Positions 21,601-24,600 of a stretch of 64,000 nucleotides of DNA are shown piece by piece. The first letter of the stretch is position 1, and each line of letters starts with the position of its first letter. The position numbers are program-made. The DNA lies in the NCBI RefSeq assembly GCF_056746865.1, contig NZ_CM163382.1, one strand, 5' to 3'.

Positions 21601-24600
21601 TCACAGGAGAGCGCCATTGACGAACATCCCTGTGCGAAACGAACAGATTCGGCAAACGGCATTCCGTCTACCCAACACGAAGCAAGTCCCGCCATCATGG
21701 CATCGCCCGCTCCGGTAACATTAATGACATTGGTTTTGATCGGCGCAGACCAACCACTTTCACCGCTGATATCACTGTAATAAACGCCGTCGCCGCCCAT
21801 GCTCATTACCAGTCGGTTCAGGCCATGTTGATGGAACCAGGCAGCAACTTTTGCCACATCTTCACGCCCTGACAAAGCAATCCCACTCAAGGTTTCCGCT
21901 TCAAGGCGGTTTGGCTTCAGGGTGTGGATCTGATTTAGACGGTCACGCACTTTGACACATTTCCATGCCGAAACCGGATCGACAAATACAGGTACATTGG
22001 CGGCATTATCCAGAATCCATGCCAGTGCCTCTTCACTGATATTACAGTCCGCGACAATGACCTTTGCCCTTTGAATAAATTCACGGTGCTGTGCGAGATA
22101 TTCAGCTGTAATAGCGTTGCTAATATTCATGTCATTTATAGCAACCAGCATTTCACCGGTATTATCGAGTAATGATAAATAGCTCGACGTGTTTTCTCCC
22201 GGCACAATCAGGCATTTATCGACATAAACACCAGATTGATTGGTTTGCGTTAGCAACGATTGACCATAAAAATCACTGCCTACTGCGCTCAGTAGCCAGG
22301 ATTTATTCCCCAGCAACGCCAGGTTTTGTGCAATATTGCGCCCGACTCCACCAGGCGTAAATTTTATTTTACCTGGATTTGAATCCGCATAATTTAATGA
22401 TTCATGTGAATATCCGGCGACATCAATATTCGCCGAACCTATAATTACGACATAATCCTTTTCGCGCATAGCACGTCCTCTGGTAAAAAATTACCAACCC
22501 TGTCAATCCACAAGAATATTGATACTGCAAAGACGGTTTAAACATGTGTTCATATTTAAACATGTGCTCATAGTATGCATGTTTTACGTAAAGTAAATTA
22601 CCGCCAGAGAGGCAAAATGGGCAGATTTGAGCAGGCTCACAAAACGCGATTAAATGCCTGAATTATAAAAACGGGGAATTTGTGACGGGATGCACAGAAC
22701 AGGAACAATAAAAAAGGGCAGAAATTAATCTGCCCTTGAGGAAATAACCTTAGTGTTTGATGAAGGTTTCAGGTTTCTACTAAAAGATAAAACCATTTAA
22801 ATTCATAAAATTACATTCACAAACCGGTCATTCTCTTTGCGCGCATCAAATGTTACAGGGCAGGAAATTTCTGCCCTGTAACACACCTTTTATTACGCTG
22901 CTTTCGCTACTGCGTCCACTTCCGGACGTTTCAGGAAGGCATAGGCCAGACCCGCCACCAGCGTACCGGCAATAATGGCTACCAGGTAACCCAGTACCGG
23001 CGTAATAGCGCCAGGGATCAGCAGAACAAACAGACCACCGTGCGGTGCCATCAGTTTCGCACCAATCGCCATTGAGATTGCGCCAGTCAGCGCCCCACCC
23101 ACGATACAGCACGGCAGCACACGCATCGGATCACGAGCAGCAAACGGAATTGCACCTTCCGAAATGAAGCACAGTCCCAATACCAGAGCGGCTTTGCCAC
23201 CTTCCTGCTGCGCTTTGTCGAATTTGCGACGCGCCACCATTGTTGCCAGGCCCATTGCCAGCGGTGGCACCATACCTGCCGCCATAATCGCCGCCATCGG
23301 GCCATAGGTTTGAGTACTCAGCAGACCCACACCGAATGCGTACGCTGCTTTGTTTACCGGACCGCCCATGTCAGTACACATCATGCCACCGAGGATCGCC
23401 CCCAGCAGAACCGCATTCGCAGTCCCCATGGTCTGCAGCCAGTGAGTCAACCCTTCGAGAATGCCAGCAACCGGTTTACCGATCAGGTAGATCATCGCCA
23501 GACCGACCACCAGACTGGAAATTAGCGGAATGATCAGAATCGGTTTCAGCGCCTCCATACTCTGTGGCAGTTTCAATTGCGTACTGATTAACTTCGCAAT
23601 GTAACCAGCCAGGAAGCCCGCAATAATACCGCCAATGAAGCCAGAACCAGTGCTGACCGCCAGCATACCGCCAATCAGACCCGGCGTGAGACCCGGACGA
23701 TCGGCAATGGAAAAGGCAATATAACCTGCCAGTACCGGCACCATCAACGCAAAGGCTGAACCACCACCAATCTGCATCAGCGCCGCAGCCAACGTACCCG
23801 GCTCTTTAAACGCTTCGATACCAAAAGCAAAAGAAAGCGCGATACACAGACCACCTGCAACGACCATCGGCAGCATGTAAGAGACGCCAGTCAGCAAGTG
23901 ACGGTAAGCGCCTGCACTCTCTTTCTTACCTTCAGTGGTCGCTGTTTGAGTTTTGCCCGCCGGTTCATACGGCGTTGCTTCAGCAACCGCATTATCCAGT
24001 TCCTGCGCGGTTTTCTTCAGCGCCAGACCGGTAGAGGTACGATACATCGGTTTACCAGCAAATTTCGCCAGATCCACTTCGATATCTGCCGCCACAATCA
24101 CCAGATCCGCTGCTGCGACTTCTTCGGGAGTGATTGCATTACCCGCGCCAACAGAACCACGGGTTTCAACTTTCACCCACCAGCCACGTTTTTTCGCTTC
24201 GGTTTCAATGGCTTCAGCCGCCATAAAGGTGTGTGCTACGCCAGTCGGGCAAGCAGTCACCGCAACTACGCGTTTCGGACCGCTGGCGGCAACCGGTGCT
24301 GTCGCAGCGACCGGCGCAGTGTAAGGTTTCGCATGGCCTTTGGCTTCACTCAGGAACAGCTCAGGGTGCGCAACTGCCCGGGAAATATCGCCCAGCCAGA
24401 CATTTTTACCGTTCAGCGCGCTGTCGTTCGGGATGGAATCACCGAGAACAATCGCCATTTCAGCGTCGTTCGGATTGTCGATGATTTCCAGTTTTGCTTT
24501 TCGCGCCGCCGCGCCCAGCAGGGTCTTCGCCATATAGGCGCGTGCCTGACCGAGATTAGCGTCAATAATCAGCAGCGTTTTCATTATGCCTCTCCTGCTG

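What the first reader, a model, noticed from the sequence alone, without database searches (positions are those of the whole stretch)
22537..22572. Exactly tandem 18-bp repeat in the psuK-psuG-psuT upstream region
TTTAAACATGTGTTCATA is followed without a gap by TTTAAACATGTGCTCATA, 68-103 bp upstream of the psuK start codon, and a further CATGT lies just downstream. Each unit contains the ACATGT palindrome. Head-to-tail duplicated sites in a promoter suggest either a duplicated promoter element or two adjacent binding sites for a dedicated regulator of the pseudouridine operon. I do not know a named regulator for this site.
Basis: seen in the sequence. Interest (0 to 1): 0.4.

Follow-up and report, generated by a model that had tools for sequence, protein, structure and literature searches.

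The report
Twin operator boxes at psuK promoter
The 36-bp tandem repeat upstream of the E. coli pseudouridine operon is a pair of conserved 12-bp palindromic protein-binding boxes sitting on the predicted transcription start, most likely operators for the uncharacterised regulator-like protein YeiI, which gives that protein a testable function and explains a recurrent gut-adaptive mutation 23 bp away.

Summary
The repeat is real: TRF reports period 18, 2.0 copies, 17/18 identical, at 22537-22572, which is 68-103 bp upstream of the psuK ATG on the minus strand. It is not a recent duplication. In E. albertii, Citrobacter, Enterobacter, Buttiauxella and Raoultella, the same position holds two 12-bp palindromic boxes (rAACA-YR-TGyTy) 18 bp apart. 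They lie directly after a conserved -35 (TTTAC) and -10 (TAnnAT), and downstream of a CRP-like box. The near-exact tandem is a homogenised state of one Escherichia haplotype; a second E. coli haplotype keeps units only 13/18 identical. The published recurrent adaptive SNP (mouse gut and long-term stationary phase, -126 A->C) turns this -35 from TTTACT into TTGACT. That places the boxes at about -6..+6 and +13..+24. The best candidate binder is YeiI, a winged-HTH fused to a PsuK-like PfkB domain. It flanks psuT in every relative. In Yersinia, Serratia, Pasteurella, Shewanella and Aliivibrio, an HTH-PfkB gene heads the psuG operon and is preceded by the same box pair. YeiI has degenerate kinase motifs (GADD, TxxE). 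No binding or TSS experiment exists. The operator function is well supported; the YeiI-repressor assignment is inferred.

The parts
22537..22572 (-). The 2 x 18-bp tandem repeat. On the psuK sense strand it reads TATGAGCACATGTTTAAA|TATGAACACATGTTTAAA.
   Evidence: Two units are present in about 4200 E. coli genomes, three units in 6, and one unit in 4.
22558..22569 (-). Box O1, GAGCACATGTTT. Predicted position -6..+6, abutting the -10 hexamer.
   Evidence: Conserved as rArCAyrTGTTy in 12 aligned orthologous promoters. Coordinates.
22540..22551 (-). Box O2, GAACACATGTTT. Predicted position +13..+24, 18 bp from O1.
   Evidence: Conserved as GAACAyrTGyTy. It is a perfect palindrome, GAACATATGTTC, in E. 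albertii.
22570..22575 (-). Predicted -10 hexamer TACTAT.
   Evidence: The TAnnAT positions are invariant in alignment A2. It lies 16 bp downstream of the -35.
22592..22597 (-). Predicted -35 hexamer TTTACT. Position 22595 is the site of the recurrent adaptive SNP (K-12 -126, A->C on the + strand), which gives TTGACT.
   Evidence: TTTAC is invariant in A2. The SNP is mapped. The allele is found in 5 genomes, 4 of them K-12 laboratory derivatives.
22577..22585 (-). Conserved promoter-spacer element AAAACATGC.
   Evidence: AAAC..GC is invariant in A2 although it lies in a promoter spacer. Its function is untested.
22626..22641 (-). CRP-like box TGTGAGCCTGCTCAAA, centred at -70.5 relative to the predicted +1.
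   Evidence: TTGTGA-N6-TCAnATCT is invariant in A2. Coordinates and spacing.
22563..22563 (-). Predicted transcription start (A; K-12 NC_000913.3 position 2259390, minus strand).
   Evidence: Inferred from the -10 position. No experimental TSS was found.
22481..22496 (-). Conserved inverted repeat or RNA hairpin TGGTAATTTTTTACCA, overlapping the first base of the Shine-Dalgarno sequence AGAGGA (22476-22481).
   Evidence: 98.6% of cells are paired, and one pair covaries (CG 7 / UA 4 / UG 1).
19258..22469 (-). The psuK (21528-22469), psuG (20602-21540) and psuT (19258-20508) operon controlled by the promoter.
13563..14651 (+). yeiI, the candidate regulator. It has a winged HTH (residues 1-48) and a PsuK-like PfkB domain (residues 58-348) with degenerate catalytic motifs.
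18492..19190 (+). yeiL, a CRP/FNR-family regulator and the rival candidate. It belongs to the yeiL-rihB-nupX cassette that separates yeiI from psuT in E. coli.

Best explanation
The repeat is a pair of operators at the psuKGT promoter. Each 18-bp unit carries a 12-bp palindrome-like box (consensus rAACA-YR-TGTTy), and the box centres are 18 bp apart. The boxes lie immediately downstream of a weak sigma-70 promoter (-35 TTTACT, 16-bp spacer, -10 TACTAT) that has a CRP-like site centred near -70.5. They therefore cover about -6..+6 and +13..+24. A dedicated regulator bound there would block open-complex formation or early elongation. The regulator is most probably YeiI. YeiI is a winged-HTH protein whose sensor domain is a paralogue of pseudouridine kinase. 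It keeps the pseudouridine-contacting residues but has lost the hallmark PfkB catalytic motifs. In this model, pseudouridine (or its 5'-phosphate) bound to the kinase-like domain releases YeiI from the boxes, and cAMP-CRP then drives transcription. In other Gammaproteobacteria a single HTH-PfkB protein appears to do both jobs, as kinase and autoregulator. Enterobacteriaceae split these into PsuK (enzyme) and YeiI (regulator). What is shown: the repeat, the cross-genus conservation of the boxes and promoter elements, the co-occurrence with HTH-PfkB genes, and the motif degeneration in YeiI. What is inferred: the TSS, binding by YeiI, repression rather than activation, and the ligand.
For: (1) An alignment of 12 orthologous psuK upstream regions shows discrete conserved islands, with poorly conserved sequence between O2 and the RBS. 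The islands are a CRP-like box, TTTAC, TAnnAT, box 1 and box 2. (2) The published recurrent adaptive SNP at -126 falls in the predicted -35 and improves it to TTGACT (PMC7858067 supplement; PMC7518454 tables; PMC9509342). I mapped it. This supports a promoter upstream of the boxes. (3) yeiI lies directly after psuT in E. albertii, Citrobacter, Buttiauxella, Raoultella and Enterobacter. In a Buttiauxella locus that lacks psuKGT, yeiI is absent too, although nfo and fruA remain. (4) HTH-PfkB genes head psuG operons in Yersinia, Pasteurella, Shewanella, Serratia, Xenorhabdus and Aliivibrio. (5) I built a PWM only from Escherichia/Citrobacter-group boxes. With it, the top-scoring box pair (spacing 17-19 bp) in the whole 13-17 kb locus lies directly upstream of the psu operon in 6 of 7 independent loci, by wide margins such as 21.6 against 7.0. 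In five of these the pair ends 3-27 nt before the start codon. That leaves no room for a downstream promoter, so the geometry is that of an operator. (6) YeiI-type proteins have GADD instead of GAGD and TxxE instead of NxxE. They keep the residues equivalent to PsuK S30, N143 and K170 (residue roles from PMC9061257). (7) YeiI's HTH is 65-72% identical to the HTHs of the fusion proteins, but its PfkB domain is only 38-48% identical to theirs. PsuK is 57-59% identical to the Yersinia, Serratia and Pasteurella fusion proteins (41-59% across all six). (8) The AlphaFold model shows a three-helix winged HTH on a flexible linker plus a PsuK-like fold with TM 0.94 to 7vtd. (9) Two units are kept in more than 99.7% of the roughly 4220 E. 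coli genomes with this haplotype.
Against: There is no experimental TSS; two TSS supplements had no entry for this region. There is no binding data, and YeiI is described as uncharacterised. In the evolution experiments, the psu locus entries I could read are always the same -35 SNP. Dedicated repressors of other operons (frlR, dgoR, srlR) are hit by many loss-of-function alleles. If YeiI were a simple repressor, yeiI knock-outs would be the larger mutational target. This could mean that pseudouridine already relieves repression in those settings, or that the model is incomplete. The half-sites within a box are only about 7 bp apart, which is unusual for a winged-HTH dimer. So the true protein-DNA register is uncertain: binding could be within a box or across boxes (TGTTT-N6-GAACA). 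Xenorhabdus lacks a recognisable pair. In E. coli, yeiI is 4.6 kb from psuT, and yeiL is the nearer regulator gene.
Confidence: 0.6

Rival explanations
1. The boxes are bound by YeiL, the CRP/FNR-family regulator encoded next to psuT. It would use the CRP-like 5-N6-5 inverted repeat formed across the two boxes (TGTTT-AAATAT-GAACA).
For: yeiL lies 68 bp from the psuT stop in the window. The inter-box geometry matches CRP-family sites (sequence). YeiL homologues occur in many Enterobacterales.
Against: The box pair is conserved in loci where yeiL is not nearby (E. albertii, Citrobacter, Enterobacter, Buttiauxella gaviniae). It is also conserved in Yersinia, Pasteurella, Shewanella, Serratia and Aliivibrio, where no cNMP-binding or Crp-HTH gene lies within 6-8 kb. 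YeiL's conserved partner is a divergent rihB-type nucleoside hydrolase plus a transporter. That pairing holds in Hafnia, Buttiauxella and Enterococcus, including a locus with no psuKGT at all. The outer half-sites of both boxes are conserved too, which one central dimer would not explain.
Confidence: 0.1
2. The boxes are activator sites for a promoter downstream of them (candidate -35 TTAAAC at 22536-22541 and -10 TATTCT at 22513-22518). In this reading the -126 SNP creates a new, unrelated upstream promoter.
For: A TATTyT hexamer is loosely conserved about 21-25 bp downstream of O2. The wild-type operon seems poorly expressed. The adaptive route is a promoter SNP rather than regulator loss.
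Against: The distance from O2 to that hexamer varies between genera. One E. coli strain carries a 14-bp deletion there. In Yersinia, Serratia, Pasteurella, Aliivibrio and Shewanella the box pair ends 3-27 nt before the start codon, so no promoter fits downstream. TTTAC and TAnnAT upstream of the boxes are invariant across genera.
Confidence: 0.1
3. The repeat acts mainly at the RNA level. The first 28 nt of the transcript fold into an 11-bp 5'-terminal hairpin that stabilises the mRNA.
For: The predicted 5' UTR folds with the repeat as a terminal stem (-9 to -10.6 kcal/mol, better than at least 99% of shuffles) in the homogenised Escherichia haplotype.
Against: In E. albertii, Citrobacter, Buttiauxella and Raoultella, the same segment folds no better than shuffled sequence (-2.7 to -5.2 kcal/mol, shuffle fraction 0.13-0.68). 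The DNA boxes themselves are nevertheless conserved there. Half of O1 would not be transcribed.
Confidence: 0.05
4. The repeat is a neutral slippage duplication, or a duplicated -10-like element, with no regulatory role.
For: Copy number does vary: one unit in 4 genomes and three units in 6. This shows that slippage occurs.
Against: Two boxes at 18-bp spacing are conserved from Escherichia to Buttiauxella and recur in distant genera. Variants make up less than 0.3% of genomes.
Confidence: 0.03

Closest known systems
ROK-family repressors (NagC, Mlc, B. subtilis XylR)
   Same: An N-terminal winged HTH is fused to a sugar-kinase-derived domain that serves as a ligand sensor. These proteins control the catabolic operon for the cognate sugar, often through two operators together with CRP.
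   Different: The sensor fold in ROK proteins is ASKHA/glucokinase-like. Here it is PfkB/ribokinase-like, with best structural matches to E. coli PsuK. There is no sequence relationship. The comparison with ROK proteins rests on my general knowledge, not on a test run here.
Bifunctional enzyme-repressors (BirA, NadR)
   Same: In Yersinia, Serratia, Pasteurella, Shewanella and Aliivibrio, one protein carries an HTH plus an apparently intact pathway enzyme (GAGD and NxxE kept). It sits at the head of the operon, behind the box pair. This suggests an enzyme that also autoregulates. Pfam HTH_11, the BirA-type HTH family, gives a weak hit.
   Different: The enzyme class differs (nucleoside kinase). 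In E. coli the two roles appear to be split between paralogues, PsuK and YeiI. Ligand-dependent DNA binding is untested.
CRP-activated, repressor-controlled nucleoside catabolic promoters (deoP2, cdd, udp with CytR/DeoR)
   Same: A nucleoside-utilisation operon with an upstream CRP site and operators for a specific repressor near the start site.
   Different: The box sequence (rAACA-YR-TGTTy) is unlike my recollection of the CytR or DeoR sites. There is no tandem CRP-CytR-CRP arrangement. The candidate regulator belongs to a different family.
Pseudouridine kinase PsuK/PUKI (PDB 7vkp, 7vtd)
   Same: The YeiI PfkB domain is 40% identical to PsuK. The model matches PsuK with TM 0.94, and the residues equivalent to S30, N143 and K170 are kept.
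   Different: YeiI has an extra 53-residue HTH. It has GADD in place of GAGD and TxxE in place of NxxE. A published commentary also argues it is not the cell's pseudouridine kinase (PMC12506659).

Membership tests
Operator pair for a dedicated transcription factor | Sequence motif conserved across genera while the flanks diverge | tested here: met
   Boxes 1 and 2 are conserved in 12 orthologous promoters, with poorly conserved sequence downstream.
Operator pair for a dedicated transcription factor | Dyad symmetry of each site | tested here: met
   GAACAT|ATGTTC is a perfect palindrome in E. albertii, and AAACAT|ATGTTT in Shewanella. Other boxes match at 4-5 of 5 positions per half-site.
Operator pair for a dedicated transcription factor | Motif co-occurs with the gene of the proposed factor in unrelated genomic contexts | tested here: met
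   The top-ranked box pair of the whole locus lies upstream of the HTH-PfkB/psu operon in 6 of 7 loci.
Operator pair for a dedicated transcription factor | Direct binding by the factor | not testable with these tools
   Needs EMSA, footprinting or ChIP.
Repressor-type operator (overlaps -10/+1) | Site overlaps the core promoter or start site | tested here: inconclusive
   The boxes fall at -6..+6 and +13..+24 relative to a TSS predicted from the conserved -35/-10 and the adaptive -35 SNP. No experimental TSS was found.
Class I CRP-dependent promoter | Match to TGTGA-N6-TCACA | tested here: met
   TGTGAGCCTGCTCAAA matches 9 of 10 positions. TGTGA and TCA are invariant in A2.
Class I CRP-dependent promoter | Site centred near -61.5, -71.5 or another position a whole number of helical turns further upstream | tested here: inconclusive
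   Centred at -70.5 relative to a predicted, not measured, +1.
Active PfkB kinase (for YeiI) | GAGD anion-hole and catalytic-base motif | tested here: not met
   All four YeiI-type sequences have GADD. PsuK and six operon-leading fusion proteins have GAGD.
Active PfkB kinase (for YeiI) | NxxE motif | tested here: not met
   YeiI-type proteins have KPTxxE, against KPNxxE in PsuK and the fusion proteins.
Winged-HTH DNA-binding protein (for YeiI) | Recognisable HTH domain | tested here: met
   Pfam HTH_24 at E 2.3e-10, residues 1-48. The model has three helices plus a wing.
ROK repressors | ROK/ASKHA sensor fold | tested here: not met
   The sensor domain is PfkB. YeiI is an analogue of ROK repressors, not a member.
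CRP/FNR (YeiL) binding site | Conserved linkage of site and yeiL | tested here: not met
   The box pair is present without yeiL nearby. yeiL travels with rihB and nupX, even where psuKGT is absent.
Contingency locus / VNTR | Frequent copy-number variation | tested here: not met
   1-, 2- and 3-unit alleles exist, but non-2 alleles are about 10 of roughly 4220 genomes.

The most novel reading that the evidence does not exclude
HTH-PfkB proteins form an unrecognised family of one-component regulators built on a nucleoside-kinase fold. In most Gammaproteobacteria, a single protein would be both the pseudouridine kinase and the autorepressor of its own psuG operon, acting through paired rAACA-YR-TGTTy boxes. 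In Enterobacteriaceae, a duplication split the roles into PsuK (enzyme, HTH lost) and YeiI (pseudokinase repressor). That would assign a function to the E. coli orphan gene yeiI.
Probability: 0.5. Interest if true: 0.65.

Novelty: new variant of a known kind. Interest (0 to 1): 0.55.

Why it matters
It would give the E. coli orphan gene yeiI a specific, testable function and DNA target. It would also define the regulatory logic of the pseudouridine salvage operon: CRP plus a dual operator. It supplies a mechanism for one of the most reproducible adaptive SNPs seen when E. coli colonises the mouse gut or survives long-term stationary phase. That SNP is a -35 up-mutation of a weak, operator-guarded promoter. 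More broadly, it would add a PfkB-fold sensor to the short list of enzyme-derived transcription-factor domains. It would also provide a clean example of a bifunctional enzyme/regulator being split into an enzyme and a pseudoenzyme regulator.

Tried and rejected
- Rfam scan of the intergenic region: only sub-threshold chance hits.
- The simple promoter scan did not report the promoter, because TTTACT/TACTAT is below its 9-of-12 threshold.
- TSS look-ups in the supplements of the Cappable-seq paper and Kim 2012 found nothing for this region. The Thomason 2015 paper is not held.
- Literature searches for a named regulator (YeiL + pseudouridine; psuG + repressor; pseudouridine kinase + helix-turn-helix; PfkB + winged) found nothing relevant.
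- The expression table of Frazao 2022 (Supplementary Data 16) is truncated in the held copy.
- A second perfect 12-mer match at 38178-38189 lies inside the yejB coding sequence and has no partner box, so I treat it as chance.
- No other strong box occurs in the window. In particular there is none upstream of nfo-yeiI, rihB, nupX or yeiL.
- A LysR-type gene upstream of psuK in some Citrobacter loci is not conserved elsewhere, so I dismissed it as the regulator.
- Excluding YeiL by taxonomy failed, because its homologues are widespread. Synteny was used instead.
- The PDB holds no HTH+PfkB fusion structure.
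Full report
**Observation.** The window is E. coli chromosome. The interval lies in the 423-bp spacer between the fruA stop (22893) and the psuK start (ATG at 22469, minus strand). TRF reports one array at 22537-22572: period 18, 2.0 copies, 94% identity, no indels. A scan of the whole 64 kb for tandem duplications of period 12-30 with at most one mismatch returns only this array and a 12-mer at 61171.

**What the repeat is.** I fetched 11 orthologous psuK loci from one-genome-per-species contigs and aligned 210 bp upstream of the start codon. Conservation falls into discrete islands, read here on the psuK sense strand:
- TTGTGA-N6-TCAnATCT, a CRP-like box.
- ATTTACTTT.
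- AAAAC..GC.
- TAnnAT.
- Two 12-bp boxes, rArCAyrTGTTy and GAACAyrTGyTy, whose starts are exactly 18 bp apart.

About 45 nt of poorly conserved sequence follows, then a small inverted repeat next to the Shine-Dalgarno sequence. E. albertii, Citrobacter, Buttiauxella, Raoultella and Enterobacter therefore all have two boxes. In those genera the 18-bp units are only about 13/18 identical. The boxes are palindrome-like: GAACAT|ATGTTC is perfect in E. albertii.

Two sites are therefore ancestral, and the near-exact tandem is derived. This also shows within E. coli. About 4220 of 5426 complete genomes carry the window-type sequence. A second haplotype (e.g. strain SCU-112) has E. albertii-like boxes, GAACATGTGTTT and GAACACGTGCTC.

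Slippage does occur. Six genomes have three units, and four have one unit (three cheese isolates, plus EA7, which also has an IS5 just upstream). These are under 0.3% of genomes.

**Promoter.** The invariant TTTAC and TAnnAT, 16 bp apart, fit -35 and -10 hexamers (TTTACT at 22592-97, TACTAT at 22570-75). Published experimental evolution supports this independently. One and the same SNP in the psuK/fruA spacer arose in three long-term stationary-phase populations and is annotated 'intergenic (-126/+297)', new base C (PMC7858067). It also arose in most mice colonised by K-12 (2257444 A->C; PMC7518454; 5 of 7 mice in PMC9509342). The authors describe it as lying in the psuK promoter region and altering growth.

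K-12 and the window are identical from the ATG through this region. Position -126 is the third T of TTTACT on the sense strand, so the change gives TTGACT. The offset of 1978 between K-12 genome versions fits. The same allele occurs in five sequenced genomes, four of them K-12 laboratory derivatives.

With this promoter, +1 is predicted at about A22563. Box O1 then spans -6..+6, box O2 spans +13..+24, and the CRP-like box is centred at -70.5. I found no experimental TSS, so these positions are inferred.

**Which protein.** In every non-E. coli relative, the gene immediately after psuT (convergent, followed by nfo) is yeiI. In E. coli, a nupX-rihB-yeiL cassette separates yeiI from psuT.

YeiI is a winged HTH (Pfam HTH_24, residues 1-48) fused to a PfkB domain that is 40% identical to PsuK. 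The literature I could search calls it uncharacterised or a hypothetical transcription factor.

A homology search found 777 HTH-PfkB relatives across Gammaproteobacteria. In Yersinia, Serratia, Xenorhabdus, Pasteurella, Shewanella and Aliivibrio, such a gene is the first gene of an operon with psuG, and usually also with the NupC-type transporter.

I built a PWM from the Escherichia/Citrobacter-group boxes only and asked where the best pair of hits, 17-19 bp apart, lies in each 13-17 kb locus. In six of seven loci it lies directly upstream of the psu operon, by wide margins:

| Locus | Top pair score | Runner-up score |
|---|---|---|
| Yersinia | 21.6 | 7.0 |
| Serratia | 21.6 | 3.2 |
| Shewanella | 26.5 | 8.4 |
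| Aliivibrio | 18.5 | 6.7 |
| Pasteurella | 14.1 | 8.1 |
| Enterobacter | 24.6 | 8.7 |

Xenorhabdus is the exception. In the operon-leading cases, the pair ends 3-27 nt before the start codon. That geometry fits an operator, not an upstream activator site.

**YeiI as a sensor rather than an enzyme.** The four YeiI-type proteins that coexist with a separate PsuK have GADD for GAGD and TxxE for NxxE. PsuK and all six operon-leading fusion proteins keep both motifs. YeiI still has the residues equivalent to PsuK S30, N143 and K170, which the PsuK structural paper ties to pseudouridine binding (PMC9061257).

PsuK's domain is 57-59% identical to the Yersinia, Serratia and Pasteurella fusion proteins (41-59% across all six). 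YeiI's kinase-like domain is only 38-48% identical to the fusion proteins, but its HTH is 65-72% identical to theirs. This pattern fits duplication followed by division of labour. The AlphaFold model (pLDDT 84.6) shows a three-helix winged HTH on a low-confidence linker and a PsuK-like body (TM 0.94 to 7vtd). No solved structure has the fused architecture.

**Rivals.**
- YeiL is the nearest regulator gene in E. coli, and the inter-box TGTTT-N6-GAACA has CRP-family geometry. However, YeiL's conserved partner is a divergent rihB-type hydrolase with a transporter, in Hafnia, Buttiauxella and even Enterococcus. One Buttiauxella locus carries that cassette between nfo and fruA with neither psuKGT nor yeiI. 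yeiI and psuKGT are thus present or absent together.
- An activator model with a downstream promoter is disfavoured. The spacing to the candidate -10 is variable, a natural 14-bp deletion lies there, and the distant genera leave no room for such a promoter.
- The 5' hairpin formed by the repeat is strong only in the homogenised haplotype.

**Caveats.**
- Binding, ligand, direction of regulation and TSS are all untested.
- In the evolution-experiment data I could read, the psu locus is hit only through the -35 SNP. Other repressors in the same experiments collect many loss-of-function alleles. A simple repressor model must explain this, perhaps because repression is already lifted where pseudouridine is available and promoter strength is then limiting.
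- From memory, and not verified here: early work by Breitman reported that E. coli pyrimidine auxotrophs need a mutation to grow on pseudouridine. That would fit an intrinsically weak promoter.
- The 7-bp spacing of half-sites within a box is unusual for a winged-HTH dimer, so the binding register is open.

**Verdict.** The 'two binding sites for a dedicated regulator' reading is supported by phylogenetic footprinting. The regulator is most likely YeiI. As far as the searchable literature shows, the system is undescribed.

Noticed in passing
window 22481-22496 (minus strand), next to SD 22476-22481: There is a conserved inverted repeat, TGGTAATTTTTTACCA, overlapping the first base of the psuK Shine-Dalgarno sequence. 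Other genera have TGGC...GCCA, so one pair covaries (CG 7 / UA 4 / UG 1) and 98.6% of cells are paired. It could be a 5'-UTR hairpin affecting translation or stability, or another protein-binding palindrome.
   Followed up: partly
window 13563-14651 (yeiI); L022 11001-12089: yeiI exists as two deeply divergent allele classes in E. coli. About 3360 genomes are at least 95% identical to the window, and about 2010 are only 80-90% identical. The psuK-fruA spacer also has two haplotypes, and about 1200 genomes lack a megablast match to the window type. The counts differ, so the region looks like a recombination mosaic.
   Followed up: partly
window ~16100-17520: An IS3-family transposase ORF (16631-17521, +) lies between nupX and rihB and overlaps the 3' end of an extended rihB ORF (17328-18362, 344 aa instead of 313). 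The otherwise identical strain 118UI has no insertion here.
   Followed up: partly
L013 (E. coli EA7), locus 552-845: Strain EA7 combines a single-unit promoter with an IS5 inserted immediately upstream of the CRP-like box. This is a naturally rearranged psuK control region.
   Followed up: partly
window 38178-38189: AAACATGTGTTC, identical to box O2 read on the + strand (22540-22551), occurs inside the yejB coding sequence (codons W-K-H-V-F) with no partner box. It is probably chance.
   Followed up: yes
window 22855-22879 and 22707-22737: Two similar GC-rich hairpins (GGGCAGAAATTTCCTGCCC and GGGCAGATTAATTTCTGCCC) lie in tandem downstream of fruA, about 120 bp apart. Only the second is followed by a T-run on the fruA/psuK sense strand. 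Enterobacter and the SCU-112 haplotype appear to have one. What lies between them was not examined.
   Followed up: no
L014 ~7753-7764, L017 ~5745-5756, L018 ~5716-5727: Yersinia, Serratia and Xenorhabdus have an additional single box (e.g. CCAAACACTTGTTTGG) about 240 bp upstream of the HTH-PfkB start. In Yersinia it lies about 66 bp downstream of a CRP-like site, the same CRP-to-box distance as in E. coli. This suggests a distal promoter plus proximal boxes, and possibly looping.
   Followed up: partly
window 61171-61194: This is the only other near-exact tandem duplication in the window: TCAGCGGATCGG|TCAGCGGAACGG, period 12. It was not examined.
   Followed up: no
L025, L026, L027: yeiL is consistently divergent from a rihB-type nucleoside hydrolase and a nucleoside transporter, from Enterobacterales to Enterococcus. 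This suggests that YeiL regulates that module. The shared intergenic region (window 18363-18491) would be the place to look for its site.
   Followed up: partly
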